64,000 nt of DNA, taken from contig CBDCLE010000020.1 of the NCBI GenBank assembly GCA_965218585.1, positions 28,232 to 92,231 on the forward strand, written 5' to 3'. Both the position numbers and the translations under genes were made by a program. This stretch comes from Terriglobia bacterium. Lineage in GTDB: Bacteria > Acidobacteriota > Terriglobia > 20CM-2-55-15. Under the pieces are notes generated by a model, which was not told where the DNA came from, did no database searches, and was given only the letters and a program-made list of their open reading frames with translations. This document shows, piece after piece, positions 1,074 through 25,872 of this stretch. Every line of letters starts with the position of its first letter. Positions within the stretch are counted from its first letter, which is position 1.

Positions 1074-1081
1074 CAGGTCCG

Positions 1082-9322: not shown

Positions 9323-9336
9323 AGGAGGGGAGACAA

Positions 9337-9783
9337 ATGGGCATCAAGCAGATAGGTGCAGAGGAGGCGCGGCAGGCCATGGAAGCCTCGGGCGACGTCG
9401 TGTATGTGGATGTTCGAACACCCCAGGAATTCGAACAGGGACATCCACCGAGAGCTATCAACATACCGGTCGTATTCCCCAATCCCCAATTGGGCCAGAT
9501 GGAACCGAATCCAGACTTCATAAAAGTCGTGGAATCGCATGTAGGAAAGGACAAGTCTGTGATCGTCGGTTGCAAGATGGGCGGGCGGTCTCAAATGGCT
9601 GCCGAGTTGATGGATGGTGCCGGCTACGGGGACGTATCGAACATGCAGGGCGGTTTCGGCGGTGCGCGAGACCGCATGAGCGGAGAAATCGTCGTGCCGG
9701 GCTGGACCCAGCTGGAGTTCCCCGTAGAGATGGAGGTAAACGCTCGGAATGGCTACGAGGAATTGAAGAAGAGCGCTTTCTGA
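9337..9783 (+). CDS. Rhodanese-like domain protein
   Basis: DVRTPQEFEQGHP, CKMGGRS active-site loop; GGAGG RBS. Confidence 0.93.
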   Translation: MGIKQIGAEEARQAMEASGDVVYVDVRTPQEFEQGHPPRAINIPVVFPNPQLGQMEPNPDFIKVVESHVGKDKSVIVGCKMGGRSQMAAELMDGAGYGDVSNMQGGFGGARDRMSGEIVVPGWTQLEFPVEMEVNARNGYEELKKSAF

Positions 9784-9793
9784 AGCGTTTCCG

Positions 9794-10999: not shown

Positions 11000-11084
11000 G
11001 TGTTCCTCTCTTGGGATGTTTGTCTCGATGAAGCGCCACTCGAGCTCTATCGGTGAAATTTCCCGGGCAGTATAATCGAAAGCT

Positions 11085-11615
11085 ATGGAAGTCAGTGTCG
11101 GTGGGGTCCTGTTGCGTGTGGTGGAAGGCGACATAACCCAGATGGCGACCGATGCGATAGTGAACGCAGCCAATAATCATTTCTGGATGGGCGGAGGCGT
11201 CGCAGGAGCGATCAAGAGGGCCGGTGGCGGTAATATTGAAACCGAAGCAATGAGTCGAGGTCCCGTGCCGGTCGGGGAGTCTGTGGTGACAAGGGCAGGG
11301 AGCCTGCCTGCCCGATACGTTATCCATGCAGCTGTCATGGGGCAGGACCTTCAAACGAATACGAAGTCGATTCGTGATGCCACCCGGAGTACTCTCGAAC
11401 GCGCCGAAGAGCTTGGAATCGAGAGCGTGGCTCTGCCGGCATTCGGGACAGGAGTCGGTGGATTTCCAGCAACCGAATCGGCCGGTGCCATGCTAGGTGC
11501 TGCGCTCGAATTTGTTCAGCAGGACGAACTTGCACTAAAGTTGATCGTTTTCGTGCTGTTCTCCAACGATCTTGCAGAAATTTTTGGAGCGACCCTTGCC
11601 AGCGCCCTCAGATAG
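11085..11615 (+). CDS. Macro domain protein (ADP-ribose/O-acetyl-ADP-ribose binding or hydrolase)
   Basis: GDIT, IVNAAN, GGGVAGAI, FGTGVGG. Confidence 0.93.
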   Translation: MEVSVGGVLLRVVEGDITQMATDAIVNAANNHFWMGGGVAGAIKRAGGGNIETEAMSRGPVPVGESVVTRAGSLPARYVIHAAVMGQDLQTNTKSIRDATRSTLERAEELGIESVALPAFGTGVGGFPATESAGAMLGAALEFVQQDELALKLIVFVLFSNDLAEIFGATLASALR

Positions 11616-11627
11616 GAGAACCTAACC

Positions 11628-11984
11628 ATGTTTTGTCCGACCTGTGGATCTGAATACCTAGAGGGAATCACCGAATGCGGAGACTGTGGTGTCGCACTTG
11701 TCGCCGAACTGCCTAAATTCGAAGACAACGATGAGCCCTTGAAGATGATCCGGATCACTGGACCGACCGAGGCGCCGATGATTGAAGAACTGCTCGAACA
11801 CAATGGGATCGACTCGATTCTGCAAGGTGAGGCGTCGGCAGCCACAATTCCAGCCACTGGCCAACTCAACGCAGTGCGTATCTGGGTGCCCGCCTCCAAT
11901 GCGGAAAGGGCCTACGAAATAGTCGAGGCATTTTTTGACGATGAGAGCGAGAAACTTGAAGAGAATGAGGGTCCGGTTGAATAG
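11628..11984 (+). CDS. Zinc-ribbon + DUF2007-like protein
   Basis: MFCPTC..ECGDC then putative signal-transducing domain. Confidence 0.8.
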   Translation: MFCPTCGSEYLEGITECGDCGVALVAELPKFEDNDEPLKMIRITGPTEAPMIEELLEHNGIDSILQGEASAATIPATGQLNAVRIWVPASNAERAYEIVEAFFDDESEKLEENEGPVE

Positions 11985-12025
11985 TGGGTATTGTCCGAGA
12001 CCCGCGTAGTGTAGGAATATAAGGC

Positions 12026-12157
12026 ATGGATAATTTTACGCTCGCCGTAGTTATAGGTATCGTAGTCGTTCTTTGCGTTCTGTTGGGCCTCGTAATAGTG
12101 GACAAGGGTGCGCCCGATCCCGACCAGATTCCTAAGTCCCGAGGAAGAAAGTCGTAA
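12026..12157 (+). CDS. Putative 43-aa single-pass membrane protein (below ORF-track cutoff)
   Basis: MDNFTLAVVIGIVVVLCVLLGLVIVDKGAPDPDQIPKSRGRKS; co-oriented between two + strand genes. Confidence 0.55.
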   Translation: MDNFTLAVVIGIVVVLCVLLGLVIVDKGAPDPDQIPKSRGRKS

Positions 12158-12227
12158 GTCTGGCCGTTGTTTCGGCGTTGCCAAAGATCAATTCCACAGA
12201 TTCCTCGTCATCGATATCAGTTCCGAT

Positions 12228-13109
12228 ATGTCCGAATTGTTCGGGGAACCTCGAGACACGACCGGTATCTGGCGCGTGGGTACCGCTGGTTGGAGCTATC
12301 CACCCGGCAGTGGGTCCGGGACCTGGACGGGTGTCTTCTATCCGCTCAAGAAGACTGACGAACTGAAGTTCTATTCCCGCTACTTCAACACTGTTGAAGT
12401 CAACTCCACTTTCTACAGGCCCTGCTCGAGGGAAGTTGCCCGGGGTTGGGTTCGCCGCACGCCGGATGAGTTCGAGTTCACGGTTAAGGTCTGGCGCGAG
12501 TTTACTCATACGCGTGGATCATGGTCTCGAAGCGAAATCGATCTGTTCAGGGAAGGGCTGGAGCCTTTGGCCGAGAGTGGCAAGCTGGGGTGTATTCTGT
12601 TTCAGTTTCCCGCTTCGTTCCACCGGTCGGAGGAAAATCTGGCCTATCTGGAACGGGTACTTTCCCTGTTCAGCAAGTTCCCATCGGTCGTCGAGTTGCG
12701 CCACCGATCCTGGAATGATTCGTCGGATCTGATCACAACCATGGGCGCGACGCCGGCTTTTATCGATGAACCCAAGTTTGCTACTTCCATACGGCAGATC
12801 CTTCGGCCCTCCGGAGTGATGCTCTATGTTCGGCTTCACGGGCGCCGCAAGGACACGTGGTGGACCCATGAGAACCGGGAGGAGCGTTACGACTACCTCT
12901 ACAGTGGCGAGGAAATCGATCGTTACGCGGGAGTGCTCAAGCAGTTGTCCCAAGACAGGCCTATCGAAAAGGCTTACCTGATATTCAACAACCATCCGGG
13001 TGCGAAGGCCGTAGCGAACGCCGTTACGCTGCGCAGCAAGCTCGAAATCCCGAACCCGACGCCGCTTCCCGCGCCTTTGCTCGAACGCTTTCCGGAGCTG
13101 GGCGCATAA
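12228..13109 (+). CDS. DUF72 (YecE/YunF family) protein
   Basis: VGTAGWSY, VEVNSTFY, LFQFP, YVRLHGR, FNNH. Confidence 0.93.
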   Translation: MSELFGEPRDTTGIWRVGTAGWSYPPGSGSGTWTGVFYPLKKTDELKFYSRYFNTVEVNSTFYRPCSREVARGWVRRTPDEFEFTVKVWREFTHTRGSWSRSEIDLFREGLEPLAESGKLGCILFQFPASFHRSEENLAYLERVLSLFSKFPSVVELRHRSWNDSSDLITTMGATPAFIDEPKFATSIRQILRPSGVMLYVRLHGRRKDTWWTHENREERYDYLYSGEEIDRYAGVLKQLSQDRPIEKAYLIFNNHPGAKAVANAVTLRSKLEIPNPTPLPAPLLERFPELGA

Positions 13110-13247
13110 ATTTAATTTATAGCGCGAATCGGCCCCACAGCTGGACTCGCGGAACTAAGAACCTCGAGAAGGTTGGTGAAATAAAGCGCTTTTTCTTGCA
13201 CATTTAGCATGAAAAGGACAAGCTACCGGGAGGAGTACGCTAAGAAT

Positions 13248-13826
13248 ATGAGATTCGTTTCCCTGTGCTTGTTTCTGGCCGGCGTTCTTCTGATCCTGCC
13301 ATCTGTGACCAATGCCCAGCAGTTGCCTGGCGGACGAAACACCGACTTGGAAATGCTGGAAAAGGGCTTCGATGTGCTGGGAACCAATGTGCCCAGCTTT
13401 CCCCCGGGCTTTTGGAGTACACCTGAAGGAAAGGCCAGGCTGGAACAGCTTCAGATGGAGCGTTTCAGGGAGAGCATCGAGGAGTTGGCCGAGCTGGGTG
13501 AAGAAGACTGGACCGCTCAATATGTTTCGACTTCGGATCGGTCGGTTCGCCGGGAATTTGAGGACAGGGTGGAGGATCTGGAGGAAGTCACCGACGGGTT
13601 GATCAAGTTCTTCGAATGGAGATTTGCTGCCGAGCCGATCGAAGTTGAAGAGCCTTCCCGGGAGGGTATTCGAGAACGGGTGGTACAGATGACTCCGATG
13701 CTGGGACAGATCCTTGAGGCGATCGACACTCTTCAGGCCGGTGGCGGCATTCAGGTTCAGCAGTTCGTCACAATGCGGGAGAACCTGGCCCATATCCACA
13801 CACTCAGTCGAATCCTGCGCGACTGA
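13248..13826 (+). CDS. Exported hypothetical protein
   Basis: Signal peptide after GGAGGA; helical acidic body. Confidence 0.75.
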   Translation: MRFVSLCLFLAGVLLILPSVTNAQQLPGGRNTDLEMLEKGFDVLGTNVPSFPPGFWSTPEGKARLEQLQMERFRESIEELAELGEEDWTAQYVSTSDRSVRREFEDRVEDLEEVTDGLIKFFEWRFAAEPIEVEEPSREGIRERVVQMTPMLGQILEAIDTLQAGGGIQVQQFVTMRENLAHIHTLSRILRD

Positions 13827-13911
13827 ACCTGCTCGAAAGATCGCCCGAAATCTTCCTGTTTCCCCGACCGACACGACCGGCACGGTCCGGGGTGCTTCGA
13901 TCAACTGGTTA

Positions 13912-14505
13912 ATGAACATGTGGACAAGCCGAATCGTCGCGTTGTTTTTCGTCCTGGGTACCTTACATGTGTCAGCAGAGGCGCAGGATCCCGTTCGTGT
14001 CCGGATCCGAACAGGGATGGGCAACGTCGACGTTGAACTGTACCCGGACAAGGCTCCCGGGACGGTGGAAAATTTTCTCAGATACGTGGATGGTGGTTTC
14101 TATCAAGGCGGGCGTTTTCACCGTACGGTCACGCTCGACAATCAACCGAACAACGACGTGCTGATCGAGGTCATTCAGGCTGGCATTAACCCGGAGCGGG
14201 ACGGGGAAGGTTTCGACCCTATTCCGCTGGAGCGGACCAGTGTGACCGGGCTCCGGCACGAAGACGGCGTGATCTCGATGGCCCGGTTCGAGCCCGATTC
14301 AGCGCGGTCGGATTTCTTCATCTGTATCGAAGATCAGCCGTCGCTGGATTTCGGTGGGGCCCGCAACCCGGACGGGCAGGGATTTGCAGCGTTCGGGAAG
14401 GTCATCGACGGTATGGACGTTGTGCGCGCGATTCAGGGCGCGCCCGTCGAGGAGCAGCGTCTCACCCCACCGGTGGGTATCCTTTCGATAGAGCGGCTCC
14501 GATAG
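13912..14505 (+). CDS. Cyclophilin-type peptidyl-prolyl isomerase, exported
   Basis: KAPGTVENF, FHR, SMAR, FFI, AAFGKVIDGMDVV. Confidence 0.93.
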   Translation: MNMWTSRIVALFFVLGTLHVSAEAQDPVRVRIRTGMGNVDVELYPDKAPGTVENFLRYVDGGFYQGGRFHRTVTLDNQPNNDVLIEVIQAGINPERDGEGFDPIPLERTSVTGLRHEDGVISMARFEPDSARSDFFICIEDQPSLDFGGARNPDGQGFAAFGKVIDGMDVVRAIQGAPVEEQRLTPPVGILSIERLR

Positions 14506-14548
14506 CCGGAGAATAGCCGCGGAGCCCGGAGCGGGAGTCCGACACCCG

Positions 14549-15604
14549 TTAGAAGGACGCCAATGCGTTAAATGGGCTTGCCGTGCCTCCCCGGATCGGA
14601 TTGATCTGAATGGCTGTCAGGAATTCCCATTGCCGCAATCGCGCAGCTGTCGCCGCAACTTCTTTCAGGTAGCCGTTATCGACGATGGGCAACCCCAGAT
14701 TCACCTGTGTGAGTTGATGTATGGGGCGGTTGATGCCTTGAACACCGGATGGCTGAACATCGTTCACGGCGTCACCAATCAAAATCGCCACATCCCTTTC
14801 ACGTAGCCAGGGCAGAACCGATGCGTGCAAGCCCGCTCCCCCCTGTCCGTATCGCCAGGGCCCTTCAGCTTCACGTTTCGCCCAGCGACCCGTGCGAACA
14901 AAGAGCGCATCGCCGCTGCCGATTTTAACGCCGGCAAATTCCTCCCAGGCTTCGAGGTCGGACACGTAAATGGGCGTGCTCGGCTCCAACCAGTCGACGC
15001 CTCGCATCAGGGGCATATCCACCAGGACACCCCGGGTCACATAGGACGTGCCCATACGATCGATCGCCAGGTCTTCGCAACCCGTGGCCGTAAGATTCTG
15101 CGGATATCCGTTAAAGATCACGTATTCGCCATCTATTTCAGTTCGGTAATGGCAAAGCGCATCCAGATGAGAAAGCATACCGTCGTGAAGAGAGAACTGT
15201 ATTTCATCCAGTGCAAAACTGGGTTCGCCGGTAACCGGATCGAGTCGACTCATCCAGTGTTCTGTGGGTCCGAAGGTCTGGCTATCCAGCGTTTTCTCCT
15301 CGGTCACAAAATGCTGCAGGGTTACGGTTTCACCTGCCCGCACTAACGAGGCAGCCTGCCGGGTCTTTTCCGGCGTGATCAGATTCAAAGTGCCGCGTTG
15401 ATCGTCCGGTCCCCACCTTCCCCAGTTGGACAATTCCTGCTCCCAATTACTCAGGGTCTCAAGAGTAACCAGAACAGACGGGTCCTGGGTCGACGGATGC
15501 ATCTGAAATTCCTGCGCCGCCATCGCATCGAACAGGAACAACGCGAGCATCATGCAAACTGCTCTCATGGCGGTCTTTGGTTGTGCCTTAAAGATTTTAG
15601 TCAT
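14549..15604 (-). CDS. Cyclase family (kynurenine formamidase-like) metal hydrolase with signal peptide
   Basis: SNWGRWGPDDQRGTLN, HLDALCH, TRGVLVD, RTGRW, GGTASP. Confidence 0.88.
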   Translation of the reverse strand: MTKIFKAQPKTAMRAVCMMLALFLFDAMAAQEFQMHPSTQDPSVLVTLETLSNWEQELSNWGRWGPDDQRGTLNLITPEKTRQAASLVRAGETVTLQHFVTEEKTLDSQTFGPTEHWMSRLDPVTGEPSFALDEIQFSLHDGMLSHLDALCHYRTEIDGEYVIFNGYPQNLTATGCEDLAIDRMGTSYVTRGVLVDMPLMRGVDWLEPSTPIYVSDLEAWEEFAGVKIGSGDALFVRTGRWAKREAEGPWRYGQGGAGLHASVLPWLRERDVAILIGDAVNDVQPSGVQGINRPIHQLTQVNLGLPIVDNGYLKEVAATAARLRQWEFLTAIQINPIRGGTASPFNALASF

Positions 15605-15636
15605 GGGACCAGACTTCCACAGCCTTCCTCACCAAA

Positions 15637-17022
15637 TCATCTCTGTGGCACGACGCGAAACTCTTCGTTGGGAGGAGGGATCACAGCGATCTCCGTGGGG
15701 CGCTCTAGCTGGGGCACCCAGTCGTATGGAACGCGGTATGCACGGTAGACACGGTTGCTCCGGTTCGGAACTGTGGTGAAATACGGATTGACGTACTCCC
15801 AGACGATCTCATTGTCGCTGGTCACCTCGAACATGCGTCCGATGGCTCCTTCATTGATCAGCGTGTTGCCATTCGGCAACCGCTGGGCCGAGCTGATGTA
15901 CTGACTGAAGAACGTGACCCGTTCCTGGCCAGCGATGGAATACTCCCAGACCTTTTCGAACGTTACCGGGTTCACCTCGAGGACGCGTGAGCCCAAGCGT
16001 CGGACGGTTCCCCTTCCGGTCGGCGCCGACAGGTTCGGAGCGCCGTAGCCAGCCGCCCCGCCATTGTCAAAGACCAGCAGGTTGCCGGCGCCGGGGAGCC
16101 CGGTCGGGATGATGTGCGGTTGATGCTGGCCCACGACCTGGCCCAGCCGGGCCAGGGCCGGGTCATCCCGGTAGTCGGGTCCCATCTTCCAGACGACGTC
16201 GCCGTCACGGTCCACGATGGCGATGATGTTCGACTGGCGACTGCTCCACATAACATTCTCAGGATGGAACCGCTCATCTCCCTCGTCGTACCAGTGGTTC
16301 GGGCCGACGTATGCCATGGCGTTGATGTGCATCCAGTCGGCGGTGCCTCGTGCTTCGCTCCAGCCGGGATAGCGGTAGATCGTGTTGCGCGCCTCGCCGC
16401 TGAAACCGAACTCGTCGATATGGTCGCTGGCCAGCCACTCCCATGTGATGTCGCCATCCCAGGTGACCTCCAGAATGTAGTCGTCTTCGAGCGTCTTGTC
16501 GGTGATTTCCGGATTCAGGACGTCGCGATGCGCTAGAACGAGCGTCCGCCCCTGGTCTACCATTGGCTCTGCGTCGGGCGCGTAGTAGCCGACGGGGCTT
16601 CCCTCACGCTGCCAGTCGTGGTGCATCCGGACCATCCACCTGGGTTCTTCGCCTTCCTCTTCCACCAGTTCGGTGCGATCGAACTTCCAGACGATCTCGC
16701 CGTCCCAGTCCACCTGGATGAGTTCCAGCGCCTCCTGCCGCCCCCGCCGGGCGCTGGAGCCACCGACGAGATAACCGCCCGGCAGGACACGAACCGGCGC
16801 TGAAGTTACTTCCGTCCAGTGCTTCAGCACGTTGCCGTTCATGTCCATAAGCACAGTGCCGCCCTCTCTCTCCCCCTCCCCCCGAATTTCGAAGACGGTG
16901 TAGCCGCTCCAGGTCTTGTCCGGGTGGAACACGGTGGTGCCCGTCGGGAAAACGGACTGAAAAGTGAGCGATAGCGACGGCGTCAGAACGAGAGCAGCCG
17001 CCAGCATCATGAGTCTTTTCAT
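15637..17022 (-). CDS. Arylsulfotransferase (ASST)-like beta-propeller, exported
   Basis: HHDWQREG, DWMHIN, GQHQPH, FDNG, SAQRLPNGNTLINEG. Confidence 0.85.
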   Translation of the reverse strand: MKRLMMLAAALVLTPSLSLTFQSVFPTGTTVFHPDKTWSGYTVFEIRGEGEREGGTVLMDMNGNVLKHWTEVTSAPVRVLPGGYLVGGSSARRGRQEALELIQVDWDGEIVWKFDRTELVEEEGEEPRWMVRMHHDWQREGSPVGYYAPDAEPMVDQGRTLVLAHRDVLNPEITDKTLEDDYILEVTWDGDITWEWLASDHIDEFGFSGEARNTIYRYPGWSEARGTADWMHINAMAYVGPNHWYDEGDERFHPENVMWSSRQSNIIAIVDRDGDVVWKMGPDYRDDPALARLGQVVGQHQPHIIPTGLPGAGNLLVFDNGGAAGYGAPNLSAPTGRGTVRRLGSRVLEVNPVTFEKVWEYSIAGQERVTFFSQYISSAQRLPNGNTLINEGAIGRMFEVTSDNEIVWEYVNPYFTTVPNRSNRVYRAYRVPYDWVPQLERPTEIAVIPPPNEEFRVVPQR

Positions 17023-17196
17023 TTCATCTCTCCTCTTTTGCTGCTGCGATGCCAGACGAAGGGCGATGTAGTCAACCCAGGACTGCTCGACATGCCGGAT
17101 TCCGTGCTTGGCAGTTGGATAATAAGACTACACGCGGGACTTGAGGTCAATCAAAACGGCAATAAATCACCCGCGAATGAACCCGCTCCTTGCTAA

Positions 17197-18039
17197 TCAA
17201 AAAAACTGGGTCGATACCTCGTTCTCGATGCAGATGTATTCGATCATGTTTGTGTCGAGCATAACGCGCTGGTTCACCCGGACGGTGAACGGCTCCGTGT
17301 ATGCCATGGGGTCTTCGATGGTGACATCGATTTCCAGATTTCCGTAGTTCACTCGACGGAACCGCTCAGTTATCTTCCCTGACGAGGTCAACGGGCTGCC
17401 GTTGTAATCGAGCCACACATCATCCCTAAAACCGATCGTTTCCACGACCAGCGTGTCTCCCTCCCATCTGCCCACCGAGTAACCAAACCACCACGGTAAC
17501 GGGTCGTTGTCGGGCAAGGACCGACCATCTGTGAAGATCTGCCGAATACCCGAGTTGGCTTCATTCAGAATGACGATCACATCCGGAGTCTGGATGATCT
17601 TCCTCGGAAAGATATGCGTGTGATACAGCATGTGGCCCATCGGCAGACAGTGAGCGTCGGGGTTGCCTTGCGCATCGTCCGCCATGCGCTGTTGTCCGAT
17701 CTCTTCAGCCCATTCTGTATACGGAACCTCCATCTGGGCTCCGATCTCAAAGAAGTTCGCGACAGGAGGCGAACCTGGCGGTGGGCTCGGGCGTTCCCCA
17801 GCAGCACCCCGACCCAGTTGTCCCCCTACCGGAGCACGCTGGCCACCGACGTTCTCCCAAAGGCCCGTCAAATCCGGTCTGCCTTCGCTTGTCCTGGGTA
17901 TTGGCCCTTCCAGATCCGGTTCTCCGTCAGGCATTCTGGGGACTCCGGACGTGGGAAAAGCCGCCCACTGCGCCGAGAGCGAACCCGAAACGAGAGTCAA
18001 GGCAGCGATCAGACCAGCCGTACGCAGCAACATTTTCAT
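17197..18039 (-). CDS. Exported conserved hypothetical protein (Acidobacteria-expanded type)
   Basis: Signal peptide; PDLTGLW, AHCLPMG, GYSVGRWEGDTLVVET, EYIC. Confidence 0.8.
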   Translation of the reverse strand: MKMLLRTAGLIAALTLVSGSLSAQWAAFPTSGVPRMPDGEPDLEGPIPRTSEGRPDLTGLWENVGGQRAPVGGQLGRGAAGERPSPPPGSPPVANFFEIGAQMEVPYTEWAEEIGQQRMADDAQGNPDAHCLPMGHMLYHTHIFPRKIIQTPDVIVILNEANSGIRQIFTDGRSLPDNDPLPWWFGYSVGRWEGDTLVVETIGFRDDVWLDYNGSPLTSSGKITERFRRVNYGNLEIDVTIEDPMAYTEPFTVRVNQRVMLDTNMIEYICIENEVSTQFF

Positions 18040-18280
18040 CTTCAGCCTCCCGATTGGACGCGGTTGTAACTATTGGAACAGTCTCCCGGATGACAGAGTC
18101 CGGAGTTTTTCCAAAAAGCAAGTCTATAGACCGAATGGGATTGGAAGCAATCAGAACGTCAGTGTTGCAAGGTGAGGCTGTTCACTGTTGGAATCCATTA
18201 CAGTTTCTCTCCGATTATTGAAAAGGTAAGCTCCCTGGCGTAGGTTCCGGAAGACGCTAATCGAGCAGGAATAGTTCTCA

Positions 18281-18315
18281 ACTTCCGAGAAGATGATTTC
18301 TCGGGACTTGACCTC
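18281..18315 (+). other. dif/Xer-like site A
   Basis: ACTTCCGAGAA-GATGAT-TTCTCGGGACT (11-6-11) + TGACCTC. Confidence 0.55.
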
Positions 18316-18339
18316 TGTGGGAGGTAGGAGCGTTGGTTC

Positions 18340-18729
18340 CTAATTCTTGTTCCTGAACGGCAACGTAAACTCGTCGTCCTGAATGTTGCACATCATTCTC
18401 GCGTGCACCTTGTACTCTCGCCACAGCTTGCCCGCTTCCTCGTCATCCGGCAAGAAACACCGACCCAGATACATTCCATCTCTGGGCGTTGTTGAATACT
18501 TTACGTAATAGCAATCCGGACGGTCGGCAAGATCACCGAGAAGGCGGCTCAACAAGTCTTGGTCAGTCGCTGTAAAACAGAGCTTCTTTCGTGAGAACTC
18601 TTGTTCATCATTCCAGCCTGCACCTCGACGTCCCATGAAGACACCATTGTGAGTCACATGGAATGTATCTGAGTTCAAGAACTCACCTCCTGAATGGGCC
18701 TGTTCAACATTTAGCTCAACGTCCGACAA
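18340..18729 (-). CDS. Hypothetical protein between sites A and B (true start uncertain)
   Basis: 129-aa ORF; its TTG start overlaps site B. Confidence 0.6.
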   Translation of the reverse strand: MSDVELNVEQAHSGGEFLNSDTFHVTHNGVFMGRRGAGWNDEQEFSRKKLCFTATDQDLLSRLLGDLADRPDCYYVKYSTTPRDGMYLGRCFLPDDEEAGKLWREYKVHARMMCNIQDDEFTLPFRNKN

Positions 18730-18753
18730 GATGATTTATCAGGACTTGACCTC
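18719..18753 (+). other. dif/Xer-like site B (direct repeat of A)
   Basis: ACGTCCGACAA-GATGAT-TTATCAGGACT + TGACCTC. Confidence 0.6.
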
Positions 18754-18758
18754 GGAAA

Positions 18759-18901
18759 TCAGGGGACCGGCACCCGCATGGCATGCACCAAGGACATGCC
18801 GAGCACGTTGAGTAAAAATTGGCCGTCATCTTCATGTCTTCGGTCGTTAGCGCCAAATGGTGCACGCCATGGGTCAGCGCCACGGGTTTTGTATATGCCA
18901 T
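18759..18901 (-). pseudogene. VOC/glyoxalase family 5' fragment
   Basis: MAYTKPVALTHGVHHLALTTEDMKMT.. frameshift ..NVLGMSLVHAMRVP, ending next to site B. Confidence 0.75.
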
Positions 18902-18997
18902 GGAAGCCTCCGTCAGGGAACGGGTACTGTGGACCGAAATGTAGTATTGGAGGCCGCCATGTTGCACAATATGCCCCGAACCAAATTGGGAAAATCA

Positions 18998-19954
18998 ATG
19001 GCACCGTCCGAAACACGTATCGATGTACACCACCATGTGCTGCCTGAATTTTACAAGGACGCGCAGCGTGCCGCAGGTATTTCCGGCAGCGCATATCGCG
19101 GGTTTCCGGAATGGACACCGGAGAAATCGCTCGCGCTGATGAACGACCACCAGATCGCCTCCACCATTTTGTCGTTTACCGCGCCGGGCATCTATTTTGG
19201 CGACCCTGTCCAGACCTGCGATCTCGCGCGCCGGTGCAACGACTATCTGGCTGCCCTCGCGCAGGCCCATCCCGGGCGTTTCGGGGGATTTGCGTTCCTT
19301 CCCTTACCGGATATCGATGCGTCCCTGGCGGAAATTGAACGGCTCGTGGACGATCTGAAACTCGACGGCATTACGCTCCTGACCAGCGTCGATGAGCGCT
19401 ATATCGGCCATCCGGATTTCGAGCCGGTCTATGAAGAGCTCAACCGGCGGCGGGTGGTAACCTTTATTCACCCCTGTTATCCGCCGGGAACCGAGGCACG
19501 GGGCTGGAACATCCCGCGCATGATGATCGACTTCCCGTTCGAGACCACTCGCGTGGCCACCAATCTGATCCTCAACGGAGTGATGGAACGACACCGGGAC
19601 ATCCCGTTTATCCTGTCACATGCGGGCGGCACGTTACCGTTCCTCGCCCATCGCATCGCCATCTTCGACAAGAAAATATCGCTCCAGGACAACTACCCGG
19701 AAGGGGCACTCGCTTACATGAAACGGTTTTATTTCGACACAGCGCTGTCGGGCAACAAGGTACCGCTCGATGCCTTGTCTGGGATTATAGATCCCTCGCA
19801 CATTTTGTTTGGCAGCGATTACCCCTACGTGTCGGAAGATGTCGTCGCCATCGAGACCGACGGGTTGGATAGCTACGTCGGCTATGATGAGACGACACAC
19901 GCGATGATCAATCGCGGCAATGCCGAAAAACTGTTTCCGCGCTTCGCGGCTTAG
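18998..19954 (+). CDS. Amidohydrolase_2 family (aromatic decarboxylase/hydratase-like)
   Basis: IDVHHH, FIHP, LSHAGGTLP, FGSDYPY. Confidence 0.9.
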   Translation: MAPSETRIDVHHHVLPEFYKDAQRAAGISGSAYRGFPEWTPEKSLALMNDHQIASTILSFTAPGIYFGDPVQTCDLARRCNDYLAALAQAHPGRFGGFAFLPLPDIDASLAEIERLVDDLKLDGITLLTSVDERYIGHPDFEPVYEELNRRRVVTFIHPCYPPGTEARGWNIPRMMIDFPFETTRVATNLILNGVMERHRDIPFILSHAGGTLPFLAHRIAIFDKKISLQDNYPEGALAYMKRFYFDTALSGNKVPLDALSGIIDPSHILFGSDYPYVSEDVVAIETDGLDSYVGYDETTHAMINRGNAEKLFPRFAA

Positions 19955-20199
19955 GCCGATTGCACGATAGCCATTTCGGAAGCTTTACGAATTGCGGGGC
20001 GGTCCATCAGCCGTTTGCGCCAACGTAAAGGATTGCGACAGCCTCGATCGAGACCGGACCTGAAGTGTCGAACCTGCATTCGTCGCCTCGTTCGTTTCAG
20101 GTTCATCATCGATGACCGCTAAGGGGATACAGGCCCTGAGACCCCATCAAGGCGCTGGCACCCGTTCCTTCAGTTCTTCAAACCAGTTCAGGACAACGT

Positions 20200-20328
20200 T
20201 TATTTGGGGCGCGTTTTGAATCGGGAGGCAGCTTGGTTCAGGGAGTTGTGTAGTTCTTCCCAAGCTTTCTGCAGGCCTGGTTTCAGATCGTCCCAAGCTT
20301 CAGCAGTCGTTTCTTTCAATTCGCTCAA
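20200..20328 (-). pseudogene. 3' fragment of small coiled-coil protein, cut by IS3
   Basis: [37 protein letters not shown]; abuts IS3 left IR. Confidence 0.6.
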
Positions 20329-20382
20329 TGAACCGCCCCGGGTTTTCCGGAGACTCCATTTCTTGAGAGGATGGGAGTCATC

Positions 20383-21641
<1,259 letters not shown>

Positions 21642-21644
21642 TAG

Positions 21645-23381
21645 CCCGCATATTTCACCGATAGGACCAGAAAAGGCCGCCCTGTCTGGCATAAAGCGTT
21701 TTGAAATAAACGTTTAACAAGCCAAACGGAGACGGCCCTTATGAGAACAGAGTGTAACCAAACGACGTTCGAATTTCACGGACTTCTTCAACGAAAAGTG
21801 AAGGCGCGTTTTGACGGCGGAAAGATCACCTCCGACGCTGGGGTTCTGCTGTTGAGGGAAGTGGAAAAGCGAACGGGTCTGATCGCCGGACTGGCCGAGT
21901 GTTTCAGGGATTACCGGGACGCGAGGTTGATCGAACACACGGTGAGCGAGTTATTGGGGCAGCGCGTCTACGGACTCTGTCTGGGCTACGAGGATCTGAA
22001 CGATCATGACCAACTGCGGACCGATCCGATGCTGGCCGTGGCGGTGGATAAGGCCGATCCACTGGGGGAGAAGCGGCGGCAGGCCCGAGACCGGGGAAAA
22101 GCGTTGGCGGGCAAGTGTACGCTGAACCGGTTGGAACTGACCGGGGAGCAAGTCGATGGGAAGGAGCGGTACAAGAAGATTGCCATGGACCCGGACAAGA
22201 TCGACCGCTGGATGGTGGATGCATTTGTGGCGGCTCACGGATCGGCGCCCGAGGAGATTGTTCTGGACCTGGATGCGACCGATGATCCGATCCATGGCCA
22301 TCAGGAAGGACGGTTCTTTCACGGCTACTACGGCAACTACTGTTATCTGCCGCTCTACATCTTTTCGGGAGAGCATCTGCTATGCGCCCGGTTGCGGTGC
22401 TCCAATGTCGACGGTGCGGACGGCGCCGTCGAGGAATTGAACCGCATCATCGGCCAGATCCGGCAGAGCTGGCCGGAGGTGTCGATTATCATCCGGGCCG
22501 ACTCGGGCTTTTGCCGGGATGAATTGCTGAGTTGGTGCGAGGCCCACCAGGTCGATTACGTGGTGGGTCTGGCCAAGAACGATCGGCTCAAGCGCGAGAT
22601 CGCTGAATCGATGAGTCAGGCCGAAGCCGAGTTTAACGACACCGGGAAACCGGCGCGGGTGTTTAACGATTTCCGGTATCGCACTCGGAAGAGCTGGACC
22701 TGCACCCGACGCGTCATCGGCAAGGCCGAGTTCCTGGAGAAAGGCGCCAATCCTCGATTCGTTGTGACCTCACTGTCGCCGGAACGCCTGGACGCCCGCG
22801 CCCTCTATGAAGACTTTTACTGTGCGCGGGGCGACATGGAAAATCGCATCAAGGAACAGCAGTTGGATCTATTCGCCGACCGGACCAGCGCGGCAACCAT
22901 GCGCGCCAATCAACTCCGGCTCTATCTGTCCTCGGCCGCCTACATGCTCCTGCACGCGTTACGCCGTCTGGGACTGAAGAATACCGATCTGGCCCGCGCT
23001 CAGTGCCAGACGATCCGCTTGAAGCTCCTCAAGATCGGAGCTCAAGTCCGTCTGACGGTTCGCAACATCTGGATCTCCATGTCGGAAGCCTATCCCTACG
23101 CCGAGGTCTTTGCCCTCGTCCATCGAAACCTGCAGGCGCTTCCTCTGCGCTGCTGAGAACCGACCCGATCCCCTGCGCCAAAATCGACTCGCTCTTTTCG
23201 GCTCCGCCGAGGTTTGTCTCAGTGCGTTTCGTCACCCTCTTCTGAACCCGAAAACGCAGCAACTCCCGCTTGTCGACACCGCCGAGTCACGCCACACATG
23301 CCCAATTCGAACCCAGATCCTCCCGAATCCGATTCTTACTGCCCAAATCCCCCTGATCGCCGGACTGGTGAAACATGCGGG
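21645..23381 (+). mobile_element. IS1380 family element, copy 1
   Basis: IRs CCCGCATATTTCACC / GGTGAAACATGCGGG; CTAG duplication at 21641-21644 and 23382-23385. Confidence 0.95.
21741..23156 (+). CDS. IS1380 transposase
   Basis: FDGGKITSDAG, GYEDLNDHD, DLDATDD, RADSGF, RGDMENRIKE. Confidence 0.95.
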   Translation: MRTECNQTTFEFHGLLQRKVKARFDGGKITSDAGVLLLREVEKRTGLIAGLAECFRDYRDARLIEHTVSELLGQRVYGLCLGYEDLNDHDQLRTDPMLAVAVDKADPLGEKRRQARDRGKALAGKCTLNRLELTGEQVDGKERYKKIAMDPDKIDRWMVDAFVAAHGSAPEEIVLDLDATDDPIHGHQEGRFFHGYYGNYCYLPLYIFSGEHLLCARLRCSNVDGADGAVEELNRIIGQIRQSWPEVSIIIRADSGFCRDELLSWCEAHQVDYVVGLAKNDRLKREIAESMSQAEAEFNDTGKPARVFNDFRYRTRKSWTCTRRVIGKAEFLEKGANPRFVVTSLSPERLDARALYEDFYCARGDMENRIKEQQLDLFADRTSAATMRANQLRLYLSSAAYMLLHALRRLGLKNTDLARAQCQTIRLKLLKIGAQVRLTVRNIWISMSEAYPYAEVFALVHRNLQALPLRC

Positions 23382-23542
23382 CTAGCCAGTCGGTCACTAT
23401 CCTTGGCGAACTCTTCCGGAAGGGTCTTGATCGCGACGTCACGACCAAGTTTCGTGTCCTCGGCACGCCACACTTCCCCCATACCTCCTTTACCCAAGAG
23501 CGAGAGGAACACTTAGTGGCCGAGTTTGGTGCCGGATTCCAT
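23382..23542 (-). pseudogene. Hanks-type Ser/Thr kinase 5' fragment
   Basis: [52 protein letters not shown]; internal TAA; cut by IS1380. Confidence 0.85.
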
Positions 23543-23624
23543 GTTTAAAGTGTGTCGCTGAAATAACCGTGAAAAACTCGGTAAAGGACACTAAGGCAGG
23601 AAGTTAGGCGCTATTAAATTCTCA

Positions 23625-23652
23625 GGTCCTCACAAACGACCTTGTCGGACGT
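23625..23652 (-). other. dif/Xer-like site C
   Basis: Reverse strand reads ACGTCCGACAA-GGTCGT-TTGTGAGGACC; flanked by ATTCTCA/TGAGAAT. Confidence 0.55.
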
Positions 23653-23971
23653 TGAGAATCCGATCTCTAGAATAAAAAGTCCTAATCTTAGTTCTTGTAT
23701 TTAATTTCAAGCACTTAGACGTGTACCGCCTATCCGGACATGTGGAATTTGCCCAAGGATCCCGAAGTCCGCGTCCATCCGGGAAACCTGAAATGTTCCG
23801 CAACAATTACCCGCGAAAAACGCCGTTTCGTTTACCGATATGTGCGACAGACGCTCGGGCCTTTTTGTTTGCTGCTCAACAGGTTCCCAGGACCCTCACG
23901 TTTCTCGCTCAACCTGCCCGGACAGTGTCCACAACATCCTCAGATTTGAAGTGCCCGCACGGCCGCGCGCG

Positions 23972-24000
23972 GGTTGATATAACACCCATATAACGGCACT
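23972..24000 (-). other. Degenerate dif-like site G
   Basis: Reverse strand ends TTATATCAACC (XerD-arm-like); other arm and spacing imperfect. Confidence 0.3.
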
Positions 24001-24023
24001 TGTCAGAGCTGCCATAGTCGTCA

Positions 24024-24051
24024 GCCCCTGCTTATATCGCTTATCCGCACG
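24024..24051 (-). other. dif/Xer-like site F
   Basis: Reverse strand reads CGTGCGGATAA-GCGATA-TAAGCAGGGGC + TGAC; left arm is 2 nt from E. coli XerC arm GGTGCGCATAA. Confidence 0.5.
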
Positions 24052-24210
24052 CAAGATCAAACTCTAATACGGCTTGATGGTCGTGTGGCCGTCCAGGTAG
24101 TCGAAGTAGATCGGCCGGCCGGTCGAGAGCAGGTAATGGAGGTTCCGGAGGTTCCGTTCGCGCCGCGCGGTACCCCTCCAGTTTGCGTACCGCTCGAAAG
24201 TCAGCGCCTG

Positions 24211-24875
24211 GCTTGGTTTCTTCGGCCCGCAGTCCGCTGTAGATACCGTCGGCCCAGACATAGACCCAGCGATCGGCATCCAATCGCTCCTCGCATCCCC
24301 GGCGGTACTGCTCGGCCCAGACCTGTTTCAACCGCGATACCGTGCTCGCCGACAGGCCCTGCGCCTGGGGTCCGACAAGAACTTTTAGAGCGTCACCCAT
24401 CTCGCCGCTGGAGACGCCTTTCAAATACAACCACGGCACCGCTGCTTCCAGCGATTTCGTTTTCCGAATGTAGGGAGGTACCAGGGCCGACCGGAACGTT
24501 ACCGGGTCGCCAGTCTTCGCTCGGACTTTCGGGATCTGGACCGTTACCGGCCCCAAACCGGTCTGCAGTTCACGTTCAGGCAGATAACCGTTGCGCACCA
24601 CCCCGGCGTTGCCCGTCTCGGTTCTCCGATCGCCGTGGTGGGATAGCAGTTCCGCCAATTCGGTTTCCACCGCGCGTTGGATCAGTTGCTGAGCTCCAAC
24701 TCGTAGTAGCTCTGTTATCGGATCCTCAATCGTCTCTCGACCCTCCGGTCCATTCACGTTACTCTTGCTCATAGTGGCGTATCTCCCTTGGTTGCTTTGA
24801 AGTCTGGTAAACAACAAATCAACCAGATACGCCGCTCTTCCTCAATCCCTTAAACACCAGATTCGGTTATAACTC
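24211..24875 (-). mobile_element. IS256 family element, truncated (left end + 5' half of transposase from 24772)
   Basis: End GAGTTATAACCGAATCTGGTGTTTA; RNGYLPERELQTGLGPV, LYLKGVSSG, YVWADGIY. Confidence 0.88.
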
Positions 24876-25223
24876 GATGGCGGCGCCTTCGCGCTTAAAG
24901 ACGGCGTTGCCGAGATAGTGGTCCCCGTGGTCTTGCCCGTTGACGACCCATTTGATAGGGTCGGCCGTTTTCTTGCGGATCTCCGCCAGCAGCGCTTCGG
25001 CGGCGCGCCGATTTCCCTGGGAGTCGACGATGAGTACCCCTTCCTCGGTGATCAGCACGGTGGAGTTGGAAGCTCCACCCGTGTAGTAGAAGTAGAGGTC
25101 GGGGCCGACCGGTGTGAGCGAGAAGGCGCTCTGCGCCTTCATCGCAGACCACTCGCCGCTGACGGCGATTCCCAGCAGCAGCGCCAGCAGGACCGTACGC
25201 ATCATGGGCATGCGCAGTGTCAT
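24876..25223 (-). pseudogene. Exported MBL-fold hydrolase 5' fragment cut by IS256
   Basis: Signal peptide, EGVLIVDS, QDHGDHYLGN, then IS256 end. Confidence 0.8.
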
Positions 25224-25382
25224 GGTGCTTTCCTTTCAGCCGGATTTAGTTTTTTCCCTTCCGGCTCGTGAGTATACATCCATCTGCCTCTGGCTGAGCC
25301 TTTCCAGCGTACGATTATCTCCGGAGGCCAGTTCGCAACTCCGGCAGAGACATTTAATGCATGTTGTTGCATCGACCGGACC

Positions 25383-25410
25383 GGTTGAGCCGGCAGACAT
25401 TGTTGGACGT
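25383..25410 (-). other. dif/Xer-like site D
   Basis: Reverse strand reads (GATTCTCA)ACGTCCAACAA-TGTCTG-CCGGCTCAACC; TTGT(C/T)GGACGTTGAGAATC shared with site C. Confidence 0.45.
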
Positions 25411-25722
25411 TGAGAATCATCCTGATCCACTGTTCGCATTCCAGTCGCCGGCGACGCATTGTCCTTTCGACCTTCAAAATCTGAGTTTCCGATTTCAAAT
25501 TTCGTTTTCCGGCTTTCGAAACCCGCTTCGGACTTTGCAAACTAACCGGGCAAGCTCCGTACTATGGCTTCCCAGATTCGGTTTCGCCAATAGATCTACG
25601 CTTTGTGCTGAGCAGACGTTTCCGACATGCCGGATCCTTCGCTCACCGTGTCGGTAAGTGACGATTGGCGAGTAAGGTCAGCTATCGGACGGAGGGCGTC
25701 TGAGATACCGCGCCTTGCGCTC

Positions 25723-25872
25723 TCAAGGCTGGGGATTCTCGTCGGTATCTTCGAGGCGATTCCGCAGTTCGTCAATACGCCGGTCGAGGTCTTTCTGCTT
25801 GAGCGACATGCGGACCGTGTACGCGAAGAAGATCACGAAGAAAGCCGAGTAAGCAGCGACGAGCCACGTCAT
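25723..25872 (-). CDS. ccmD: CcmD-like small membrane protein (49 aa, not in ORF track)
   Basis: MTWLVAAYSAFFVIFFAYTVRMSLKQKDLDRRIDELR..; ATGA overlap with ccmC stop. Confidence 0.8.
   Translation of the reverse strand: MTWLVAAYSAFFVIFFAYTVRMSLKQKDLDRRIDELRNRLEDTDENPQP

What the first reader, a model, noticed from the sequence alone, without database searches (positions are those of the whole stretch)
18275..25418. Chromosomal array of dif/Xer-like sites partitioning a 7-kb cargo patchwork
Seen: an 11-6-11 motif recurs at 18281 and 18719 (+) and at 23625, 24024, 25383 and weakly 23972 (-). The left arm is ACGTCCGACAA-like (site F: CGTGCGGATAA), usually preceded by (TT)CTCA. The right arm is TTATCAGGACT-like with a TGACCTC-like tail. 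Outermost sites A and D face inward and coincide with the switch from intact core genes to decayed DNA. Established: 11-6-11 is the XerC/XerD dif architecture, and pdif modules are known on Acinetobacter plasmids. Inference: an integron-like, Xer-driven gene-capture platform with no dedicated recombinase in the window, possibly at the replication terminus, with a non-canonical REP-like right arm.
Basis: partly seen in the sequence, partly recalled or inferred. Interest (0 to 1): 0.75.

Follow-up and report, generated by a model that had tools for sequence, protein, structure and literature searches.

The report
Genus-specific palindromic repeat, not dif
The supposed dif/Xer sites are copies of a 40-base palindromic repeat found about a hundred times in this acidobacterial genome, where it marks the borders of swappable gene modules and attracts jumping genes; the chromosome's real dif site lies elsewhere.

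Summary
Three of the six sites (A, B, C) are full copies of a 40-nt imperfect palindrome. D is a left half cut by the end of an IS30-family element. The sites at 24024 and 23972 are not members. The family has 88 copies in this genome, is common in two sister species, rare in two others, and at most one copy in 36 further relatives.

Copies cluster in IS-rich, lineage-specific islands, mostly co-oriented, between gene-sized modules. Those modules are far more alike between species (85-97%) than core genes (72-83%).

The Xer/dif reading is not supported:
- A canonical dif-like site, single in this genome, lies on another contig, about 36 kb from xerD.
- The window shows no GC-skew switch.
- The sites do not alternate in orientation as pdif sites must.
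- Conservation runs beyond the 28-bp core.

It is not a canonical attC either. This genome has no integron integrase, and sister integrons use other attC sites. RAYT and MITE tests also failed.

Best reading: a REP/BIME-like repeat that serves as a hot spot for IS30- and IS91-family insertion and for module exchange. A dedicated cassette recombination system is not excluded. Earlier notes of this scan describe similar integron-like arrays with other palindromic repeats in other Acidobacteriota.

The parts
18275..18314 (+). Site A: full copy of the 40-nt palindromic repeat (GAGAA/TTCTC variant)
   Evidence: (43.0 bits); ssDNA fold -6.6 kcal/mol, z -1.40
18713..18776 (+). Site B: full copy (18713-18752) plus 'tail a'. 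On the opposite strand the tail is a relic of the last codons (..RVPVP stop) of the kinase-PD40 gene family
   Evidence: 49.2 bits; up to 19 other copies; fold -4.6 kcal/mol, z -1.13
18340..18729 (-). Orphan 129-aa ORF between A and B, no Pfam family
18857..19954 (+). Amidohydrolase_2 gene, unique in the genome
   Evidence: (PF04909, 121.6 bits)
20146..20208 (-). Relic of the 3' end (..NWFEELKERVPAP stop) of a kinase-PD40 family gene, with no repeat beside it
   Evidence: (6 copies), 65 for the motif
20329..21650 (+). IS3-family element with a broken orfB (approximate ends)
   Evidence: NF033516, 219.4 bits
21651..23386 (+). IS1380-family element, transposase 21741-23156 (approximate ends); multi-copy
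   Evidence: NF033539, 397.9 bits
23387..23618 (-). 5' fragment of a Ser/Thr kinase gene (ATG at 23548, with an internal stop) and its conserved leader, cut off by the IS1380 element
23619..23658 (-). Site C: full copy, 'type c' (centre GGTCGT), 75 nt upstream of the kinase ATG
   Evidence: (47.1 bits); fold -9.0 kcal/mol, z -2.32
24024..24060 (-).
24212..24875 (-). Fragment of an IS256-family element, 99.5-100% identical to about 20 other copies
24867..25223 (-). N-terminal fragment of a metallo-beta-lactamase-fold gene
   Evidence: PF00753, 27.3 bits
25330..25392 (-). About 60-bp remnant of the end (inverted repeat) of an IS30-family element
25393..25416 (-). Site D: left arm and part of the centre only; the repeat was split by the IS30-family insertion
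   Evidence: (model positions 1-26)

Best explanation
The sites belong to a genus-restricted family of 40-nt imperfect palindromes. The consensus in alignment A3 is TTCTCAAC-GTCCGA[C/G]AA-GATGAT-TT.TCAGGAC-TTGA.. and is best described as REP/BIME-like. Shown: about 90-100 copies in this genome, clustered and mostly co-oriented in IS-rich, lineage-specific islands between gene-sized modules. Shown: the centre of the palindrome is the preferred insertion point of an IS30-family element here, and IS91-family (recombinase + Y2 transposase) elements sit in or beside copies in sister species. Shown: homology between species often stops at or inside a copy. Inferred: the repeat works as portable homology and as a palindromic hot spot at which transposases and recombination break and rejoin DNA, so modules are gained, lost and swapped there. 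No Xer recombination and no integron integrase acts on it in this genome. The 7-kb 'cargo patchwork' is then ordinary decay. A Ser/Thr kinase-PD40 gene that began at site C was shattered by IS3- and IS1380-family insertions. Around it lie an orphan ORF, an amidohydrolase gene, an IS256 fragment and a broken metallo-beta-lactamase-fold gene. What copies the repeat to new places is unknown.
For: Family and spread:
- 88 copies at 20 bits or more.
- Pattern counts are 53, 141, 96, 7 and 1 in the five genomes of the genus, 1 each in 3 of the 36 other relatives and 0 in the remaining 33; the reversed control is 0 in all 41.
- Public scans found 1 genome record, 2 metagenome contigs and 0 viral contigs.

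Arrangement:
- Sharp left boundary, with subfamily-specific tails on the right.
- 56 of 70 neighbour gaps are 5 kb or less, against a random mean of 8.0 and a maximum of 19 in 500 trials.
- 40 neighbour pairs are co-oriented and 16 opposed.

Content and exchange:
- Cargo is diverse single enzymes plus IS256, IS1380, IS5-like and IS21 elements.
- Modules of one array lie scattered in G001 and G003 at 85-93% identity. Core DNA is 72-83% identical.
- A 1364-bp module is 97.4% identical between G000 and G003. It runs from one repeat to the next and stops between GAT and GAT of the second repeat's centre.
- The PCMT module has a different upstream partner in each of 3 genomes, and homology starts inside the repeat.

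Insertion hot spot:
- IS30-family: 2 of 3 full copies, plus at least 8 further split sites carrying its ends or a miniature form, sit in repeat centres.
- IS30 is known to prefer nearly palindromic hot spots (passages of PMC9333248).
- REPs are known IS targets and recombination junctions (passages of PMC1525189).
- IS91-family elements split 4 repeats in G001 and G003.
Against: - No mobiliser was found. The two Y1-transposase genes are not flanked by the repeat.
- No target-site duplication: best 4 of 28.
- Heavy clustering in co-oriented arrays is unusual for REPs and is what a cassette system would give.
- The 6-nt centre is as conserved as the arms, as expected if crossing-over happens there.
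- Base-pair covariation is no better than shuffles: 75.1% of cells paired against 75.0%. Sites A and B fold weakly. A hairpin form is therefore not demonstrated.
- No clean filled-versus-empty site was found in 20 sister loci and 4 own loci.
Confidence: 0.55

Rival explanations
1. The repeats are the recombination sites of a dedicated, integron-like cassette system. A tyrosine recombinase would cut in or beside the 6-nt centre and move single-gene cassettes. The enzyme could be an IntI acting in trans, the Xer-like partner of the IS91-family elements, or one not yet recognised. In this genome the enzyme would be lost, leaving an orphan array like a CALIN.
For: - Co-oriented arrays of gene-sized modules.
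- Modules are shared between species at 85-97% identity while core DNA is 72-83%.
- One block ends exactly in the centre of a repeat.
- The outer boxes TCTCAAC/GTTGAGA match 6 of 7 positions of RYYYAAC/GTTRRRY (consensus from passages of PMC5027507).
- 3 of 4 sister genomes have a true integron integrase.
- Sites of only about 41-43 nt occur in a genuine sister integron array.
- Xer-like recombinase genes sit within about 100-330 nt of repeats in G001 and G003.
- Earlier notes of this scan report similar arrays beside Xer-like recombinases (unchecked leads).
Against: - No IntI over the cut-off in G000: best 83.7 bits against 265.
- No repeat better than a chance-level hit (E 0.94) in about 133 kb around the IntI genes and fragments of G001, G002 and G003; the arrays seen beside the G002 and G001 IntI genes use canonical attC sites.
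- Repeat number does not follow IntI presence: G002 has IntI and 7 copies, G000 has none and 53.
- No 5-6-nt unpaired spacer, one bulge rather than 2-3 extrahelical bases, and 40 nt rather than 57-141.
- The PCMT and MBL modules do not carry their own 3' site between genomes.
- The recombinases next to repeats are partners of IS91-family transposases, and in G002 (4 of 4 copies read) they sit at non-repeat targets.
Confidence: 0.25
2. One reading: the inner 11-6-11 is a dif-like site, and the host XerC/XerD shuffle the modules as in Acinetobacter pdif modules.
For: - The inner 28 bp has the 11-6-11 layout.
- Read by hand, it shares 13 of 22 arm positions with this genome's own dif-like site, including the inner ..AA and TTAT...
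- The centre GATGAT is the same in most copies.
- One homology block ends in the centre.
Against: - A separate canonical dif-like site is single in this genome and found in relatives.
- Conservation extends 6-8 nt beyond each 11-nt arm.
- Right-arm positions vary (TTATC, TTCTC, TTGTC, TTAAC), and TTCTC occurs only with the matching left-arm change: 10 of 20 against 0 of 26, counted by hand. Two different Xer monomers would not require that.
- Neighbours are mostly co-oriented, whereas pdif modules need alternation (passages of PMC13141974).
- About a hundred active Xer sites would endanger the chromosome (inference).
Confidence: 0.05
3. The palindrome is a regulatory element of the expanded Ser/Thr kinase-PD40 gene family: an operator at its promoter, or an RNA element in its transcripts. 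It would have spread by duplication of those genes, whose remnants now litter the islands.
For: - 17 of 23 copies of the family's start motif have a repeat within 250 nt upstream, 11 of them at a fixed 74-88 nt.
- 15 of 88 repeats have the family's C-terminal motif on the tail side, 13 of 88 have the leader on the right, and 6 have it on the left.
- The right arm overlaps a TTGACC/TTGAGA hexamer.
- On the gene-sense strand the common C.A mismatch becomes a G.U pair.
Against: - 59 of 88 repeats have neither kinase flank.
- Either orientation occurs upstream of the kinase genes.
- No sigma-70-like promoter and no terminator-like site coincides with A-D.
- Copy number varies 1 to 141 within one genus, which fits mobile DNA better than a regulon.
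- Context is mixed: 32 between tandem genes, 21 between divergent genes, 14 between convergent genes, 9 other.
Confidence: 0.1

Closest known systems
REP / BIME elements, including CGTC-tagged REPs (Di Nocera et al. 2013, PMC3733652; Tobes and Pareja 2006, PMC1525189; passages read)
   Same: Short (20-40 or 21-65 nt) imperfect palindrome. Intergenic, high copy number, and very different numbers in close relatives. Single units plus some head-to-head pairs. Specific target for IS insertion and found at recombination junctions. Contains CGTC, and CGTC REPs have no known transposase.
   Different: CGTC is internal, not terminal. No RAYT is flanked by the repeat. Copies are concentrated in co-oriented arrays inside accessory islands rather than spread through the core genome. 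The targeting IS is of the IS30 family, which is not among the five families listed in PMC1525189.
Integron attC sites and integrase-less attC clusters (CALIN); attC features from Nivina et al. 2016, PMC5027507 (passages)
   Same: Co-oriented palindromic sites between single-gene modules. The outer boxes are one position short of RYYYAAC/GTTRRRY. One bulged base lies on the 3' arm of the strand opposite the genes. Cassettes are shared between species. An integron integrase is present in the genus.
   Different: 40 nt long, with no unpaired central spacer and one bulge only. The repeat is not found beside any IntI of the genus. Modules do not keep their own 3' site. The sequence itself is highly conserved rather than only the structure.
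pdif sites and dif modules of Acinetobacter plasmids (PMC13141974, passages)
   Same: An 11-6-11 core with a largely constant 6-nt centre, bounding small accessory modules.
   Different: Chromosomal. Sites are mostly co-oriented instead of alternating. The conserved region is 40 nt. The arms co-vary. The chromosome has a separate canonical dif-like site.
IS30 'hot spot' targets (Szabo et al. 2022, PMC9333248, passages)
   Same: A nearly palindromic sequence into whose centre an IS30-family element inserts, with a short duplication (CAT in the C13 copy). The arms resemble the element's own inverted repeat (CTCAAC..GTCGA).
   Different: Here the hot spot is itself a repeat family of about 100 copies with conserved tails. 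It is also used by an unrelated IS91-family element.
Neisseria dRS3 repeats and intergenic mosaic elements (named as CGTC-1 in PMC3733652; their role as phage and recombination sites is recalled, not checked here)
   Same: Short palindromic repeats in large clusters that separate exchangeable modules and serve as integration sites.
   Different: Unrelated sequence and phylum. The modules here are whole genes of 0.4-3.5 kb, not 50-150-bp repeat units.

Membership tests
XerC/XerD dif site | One canonical 28-bp site per chromosome, conserved in relatives | tested here: not met
   That role is filled by G000:C10:37495-37520. It is the only hit of a loose dif probe in the genome. It was found in 7 of 25 genomes searched, this one included, at up to 3 mismatches, with 0 control hits. 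The window's sites are a family of about 100 copies.
XerC/XerD dif site | Location at the replication terminus (GC-skew switch) | tested here: not met
   No sustained sign change of GC skew at 18-25 kb of the window. The assembly has 26 contigs, so the terminus itself could not be mapped.
XerC/XerD dif site | Binding and cleavage by XerC/XerD | not testable with these tools
   xerD (347.1 bits, cut-off 329.6) and a second Xer-like gene are present.
pdif / dif modules | Neighbouring sites alternate in orientation (C and D modules) | tested here: not met
   40 of 56 neighbour pairs within 5 kb are co-oriented. The rule comes from passages of PMC13141974.
pdif / dif modules | Identical or nearly identical 6-bp spacers in sites that recombine | tested here: inconclusive
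   GATGAT in most of 45 aligned copies. Type c copies have GATCGT, GGTCGT or TGTCGT.
Integron attC | R boxes RYYYAAC / GTTRRRY | tested here: inconclusive
   TCTCAAC / GTTGAGA match 6 of 7 positions each in types b and c. In type a the second box is TTGACCT.
Integron attC | Unpaired central spacer of 5-6 nt per arm, 2-3 extrahelical bases, length 57-141 bp | tested here: not met
   40 nt. One bulged A, plus a bulged C or a 2x1 internal loop. No 5-6-nt spacer (definition).
Integron attC | Arrays start beside an integron integrase, or score with the attC covariance model if they are a CALIN | tested here: not met
   No IntI over the cut-off in G000. No repeat better than a chance-level hit (E 0.94) in about 133 kb around the IntI genes and fragments of three sister genomes. 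The attC covariance model could not be run here.
REP / BIME | Imperfect palindrome of 20-65 nt, intergenic, many copies, lineage-specific numbers | tested here: met
   11 of 88 lie inside a called ORF, 1 at a contig edge, and 76 between ORFs.
REP / BIME | GTAG or CGTC tetranucleotide at one end | tested here: inconclusive
   CGTC is present at alignment columns 12-15, but 8-10 conserved bases lie outside it.
REP / BIME | A RAYT gene flanked by the repeat | tested here: not met
   Two Y1_Tnp hits (40.4 and 37.1 bits), neither flanked by the repeat. One has its own 15-bp inverted repeats.
REP / BIME | Specific target of insertion sequences | tested here: met
   IS30-family in the centre. IS91-family in or beside copies in G001 and G003. 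Other IS ends lie within tens of bases.
MITE derived from an IS30-family element | Terminal inverted repeats flanked by a target-site duplication | tested here: not met
   At best 4 of 28 full palindromes have a matching flanking 2-mer at any offset. The right flank falls into conserved subfamilies, so the unit does not end there.

The most novel reading that the evidence does not exclude
The 40-nt palindrome is the recombination site of a gene-cassette system that does not depend on an integron integrase. It would be shared by a few related Terriglobia species. Single genes would be cut out and inserted at the centre of the site by a Xer-like recombinase, for instance the partner of the IS91-family elements, or by an enzyme not yet recognised. 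This genome would hold orphan arrays left after the enzyme was lost.
Probability: 0.2. Interest if true: 0.8.

Novelty: new variant of a known kind. Interest (0 to 1): 0.45.

Why it matters
If the ordinary reading holds, this is a well-documented example from a little-studied phylum. It shows a short palindromic repeat organising genome plasticity by focusing IS30- and IS91-family insertions and marking where accessory genes are exchanged between species. That is useful for annotating such genomes and for not mistaking these repeats for dif or attC sites. If the bolder reading holds, it would add a second kind of gene-cassette platform beside integrons. This scan has flagged similar arrays with other palindromic repeats in other Acidobacteriota and other phyla (unchecked notes), so a common mechanism would be worth a bench test.

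Tried and rejected
- Rfam: scanning three arrays gave only a tRNA.
- Covariation: 75.1% of cells paired against 75.0% in shuffles, and a covariation score of 0.045 against 0.052. There is no statistical support for a conserved hairpin. Only one pair (columns 19/30) shows a two-sided change.
- Promoter and terminator scan of 18000-25600: 0 promoter-like sites, and 10 terminator-like sites against 6.9 expected, none at A-D.
- Target-site duplications: none.
- RAYT link: rejected.
- Filled-versus-empty site test: none of 20 repeat loci from G001 and G003 has both flanks contiguous in G000. The same held for 4 own loci searched in the sisters. The flanks are unique, IS, or matched on one side only.
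- Public reads: four runs laid as contigs confirm the window's arrangement across A and across D with 0 differences (records 9, 15, 27). The listed 'joints' (for example 18749 to 20157) have sides of 22-39 letters at 90% likeness. They match the tail and C-terminal relic modules of other copies, so I read them as cross-mapping of the repeat family, not as excision. The runs may include the sample the window came from.
- My crude attC finder failed, so I read the sister attC sites by eye.
- A self-BLAST for low-copy duplicates around repeats was swamped by IS copies.
- A loose right-arm pattern gave thousands of chance hits and was dropped.
- The multi-copy Xer-like recombinase of G001 and G002, first suspected as the missing enzyme, is the partner ORF of IS91-family elements.
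- Literature: one search for 'Acidobacteriota' with 'repetitive extragenic palindromic' found one paper (listing and abstract start only). It was not read, so I cannot say the repeat is undescribed.

Full report
OBSERVATION

The window is G000:C20:28232-92231. Sites A (18275-18314, +), B (18713-18752, +) and C (23619-23658, -) share a 40-nt imperfect palindrome. D (about 25393-25416, -) has only its left arm.

Inside the window alone the left-arm 15-mer is not significant: 4 matches at up to 3 mismatches against 2.23 expected, and 19 of 100 shuffles did as well. The right arm plus tail is significant: 2 matches against 0.04 expected.

The sites at 24024 (F) and 23972 gave no profile hit, do not fold, and lie in unique DNA.

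A GENOME-WIDE FAMILY

A profile built from 45 seeds finds 122 hits at E<=10 in the 4.55-Mb genome, 88 of them at 20 bits or more.

- Information content is high over about 40 nt.
- The left boundary is sharp. To the right, conservation decays into subfamily-specific 'tails'.
- A 23-nt pattern (up to 2 mismatches) occurs 53, 141, 96, 7 and 1 times in the five genomes of the genus.
- It occurs once each in 3 of the 36 other relatives and not at all in the remaining 33.
- The reversed control pattern gives 0 hits in all 41 genomes.
- Exact-match scans of public collections found one other genome record (a Terriglobia MAG), two short metagenome contigs and no viral contig.

Copies are strongly clustered. 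56 of 70 neighbour gaps are 5 kb or less, against a mean of 8.0 and a maximum of 19 in 500 random placements. 40 neighbour pairs are co-oriented and 16 opposed.

WHAT LIES BETWEEN THE COPIES

The arrays hold diverse single enzymes: methyltransferases, glyoxalase, MBL-fold proteins, amidohydrolases, cupin, esterase, sulfite-oxidase-like and others. They also hold many IS elements.

About a third of the copies are tied to one expanded gene family, Ser/Thr kinase fused to PD40 repeats.

- 'Type c' copies, including site C, sit 74-88 nt upstream of the family's ATG in 11 of 23 cases. In 6 more cases a copy lies upstream in the other orientation.
- 15 of 88 copies have the family's last codons (..NWFEELKERVPVP stop) on the tail side, often as a non-coding relic behind an unrelated gene.
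- 59 of 88 copies have neither flank.

THE WINDOW ITSELF

DNA to the right of about 25739 (cytochrome c assembly genes) is syntenic in all four sister genomes. In three of them (G001, G002, G003) it is preceded by a block equal to window 1-12155 plus a block that in G000 lies at the end of contig C26. Window 12155-25739 is therefore lineage-specific, and its left limit is not at A. No repeat lies in the equivalent 20 kb of the sisters.

Read on the minus strand from C, the 'patchwork' is as follows:

- the leader and first codons of a kinase gene, cut off by an IS1380-family element;
- an IS3-family element;
- a relic of the kinase family's 3' end (20146-20208);
- an amidohydrolase gene on the other strand;
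- site B with a short relic tail;
- an orphan ORF;
- site A.

To the right of C lie unique DNA, a 664-bp IS256 fragment identical to about 20 other copies, a broken MBL-fold gene, a 60-bp remnant of an IS30-family end, and the half site D.

Contigs of public runs cover A and D with no differences. The 'joints' reported there are cross-mapping of repeat modules.

WHY D IS A HALF SITE

A 1.25-kb element with 25-bp inverted repeats and a frameshifted IS30-family transposase (NF033563, 206 bits for the C-terminal piece) sits in the centre of the palindrome.

- 2 of its 3 full copies in G000 are placed this way.
- At least 8 further split sites carry its ends or a 90-bp miniature form.
- One copy shows a CAT duplication. 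One full copy, and the G004 copy, are not in a repeat.

IS30 is known to choose nearly palindromic hot spots or its own inverted repeats (passages of PMC9333248). The arms of the repeat resemble this element's inverted repeat.

In G001 and G003 an unrelated element, IS91-family Y2 transposase plus a Xer-like recombinase, splits four repeats just right of the centre. It sits about 30 nt beside others. In G002 its copies lie at non-repeat targets.

TESTS OF THE XER/DIF READING

- A loose dif probe hits the genome once, at C10:37495-37520.
- That 26-mer was found in 7 of 25 genomes searched, this one included, at up to 3 mismatches, with 0 control hits.
- xerD (347 bits, over its cut-off) lies about 36 kb from that site on the same contig.
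- GC skew shows no sustained switch at the finding.
- pdif modules require alternating site orientation and matching spacers (passages of PMC13141974). Here most neighbours are co-oriented.
- The conserved region is 40 nt, not 28.
- The right-arm variant TTCTC occurs only with the matching left-arm change: 10 of 20 against 0 of 26, counted by hand.

By my hand reading the inner 28 bp does share 13 of 22 arm positions with the real dif-like site. I keep a small probability for Xer involvement.

TESTS OF THE INTEGRON READING

- G000 has no integron integrase: best 83.7 bits against a cut-off of 265.
- Three of four sisters have one, at 440-458 bits.
- About 133 kb around those genes and two broken copies holds no repeat better than a chance-level hit at E 0.94.
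- The arrays seen beside the G002 and G001 integrases use canonical attC sites.
- Repeat number does not follow IntI presence.
- Against the attC definition (R and L boxes, unpaired central spacer of 5-6 nt, 2-3 extrahelical bases, 57-141 bp; passages of PMC5027507), the repeat has near-consensus R boxes. It has no such spacer, one bulge, and 40 nt.

EVIDENCE THAT THE REPEATS MARK EXCHANGE POINTS

Modules of one G000 array (PCMT, glyoxalase, CDO-like, MBL) occur singly and dispersed in G001 and G003 at 85-93% identity. Syntenic core DNA is 72-83% identical.

The PCMT module has three different upstream partners in three genomes, and homology begins inside the repeat. Its 3' flank differs between genomes, so it does not carry its own downstream site.

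A 1364-bp module is 97.4% identical between G000:C12 and G003:C2, with no other homology in the surrounding stretches compared (about 8 kb of G003 against 11 kb of G000). It spans from one repeat to the next and ends between GAT and GAT of the second repeat's centre.

Of 20 repeat loci taken from G001 and G003, none has both flanks contiguous in G000.

TESTS OF OTHER KNOWN KINDS

- REP definitions (20-65 nt, palindromic, extragenic, IS targets, REP-REP recombination; passages of PMC1525189 and PMC3733652) fit.
- A CGTC is present but internal.
- The two Y1-transposase genes are not flanked by the repeat. One has its own inverted repeats with the GGGGWSAS motif described for acidobacterial TIRYTs.
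- No target-site duplication was found.
- No covariation beyond shuffles was found.
- A and B fold weakly, while type b and c copies fold well, with z -4.3 and -2.3.

VERDICT

The sites are a genus-specific REP/BIME-like palindromic repeat, not dif and not canonical attC. It acts as an insertion and recombination hot spot in fast-changing islands (confidence 0.55).

A dedicated cassette-recombination system using the repeat remains possible (0.25, including the boldest form at 0.2). Earlier notes of this scan describe similar arrays with other repeats in Acidobacteriota, some beside Xer-like recombinases. I tested that lead here only in part. The recombinases next to repeats in this genus belong to IS91-family elements.

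I could not run the attC covariance models or any binding test. Supplements of PMC8352920, which hold the Acidobacteria attC model, were not seen.

Noticed in passing
G000:C10:37495-37520 (not in the window); G001:C2:108118 and 111514; G003:C2:3812530 and 3801332: Canonical dif-like site, single in G000. G001 and G003 each have a second, degenerate copy 3.4 and 11 kb away, as left by an element integrated at dif.
   Followed up: partly
L119:2875-5480, L120:3028-5603, L121:2085-4336, L101:460-600 (G003 and G001): IS91-family elements (Xer-like recombinase + Y2 transposase + a 103-aa ORF in the two G003 copies) inserted into the palindromic repeat just right of its centre. The motif GTTTG stands on both sides in the two G003 copies.
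   Followed up: partly
window 20146-20208 and 18753-18776; many loci, e.g. L009:12213-12292: The last ~20 codons of the kinase-PD40 family (..NWFEELKERVPVP stop) occur as non-coding relics fused to the repeat behind unrelated genes. The family's leader and first ~12 codons occur in front of unrelated genes.
   Followed up: partly
window 39585-40853 (+): Phage-type integrase with an arm-binding domain (PF13356, PF22022, PF00589), followed by a stretch of high GC (0.61) and high GC skew at 40-47 kb. Probably an integrated element. No tRNA gene anywhere in the window.
   Followed up: no
G000:C10:115411-116257: Y1-transposase gene flanked by 15-bp perfect inverted repeats GGGGTCAGAGCCCTA, matching the TIRYT type described for Acidobacteria. 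A few short copies of the flank occur elsewhere.
   Followed up: partly
window 20329-23386 and 24212-24875; whole genome: Very many IS copies at 99-100% identity: up to 38 copies for parts of the IS3/IS1380 stretch, about 20 for the IS256 fragment, and others with 24-27 copies. Several end within tens of bases of a repeat.
   Followed up: partly
window 12155 and G000:C26:375502-377508 (contig end): In three sister genomes the block equal to window 1-12155 is followed by a block that in G000 lies at the end of contig C26. This marks a rearrangement or assembly break in G000.
   Followed up: no
L041:2614-2655 and 8550-8593 (G002 integron array): Two canonical-looking attC sites of only about 41-43 nt in a genuine integron array, shorter than the 57-141 bp range quoted in PMC5027507.
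   Followed up: no
G000:C14:31851-31965 (L052:350-470): Miniature (~90-bp) derivative of the IS30-family element, made of its two inverted repeats only, sitting in the centre of a repeat.
   Followed up: partly
G000:C2:96132-96215, C9:71185-71283, C11:3385-3478, C24:213551-213646: Head-to-head pairs of repeats about 20 nt apart. Two of them, read in full, share a spacer of the type CCCCCGTTTTTAGGCC, and the second member is of type c.
   Followed up: no
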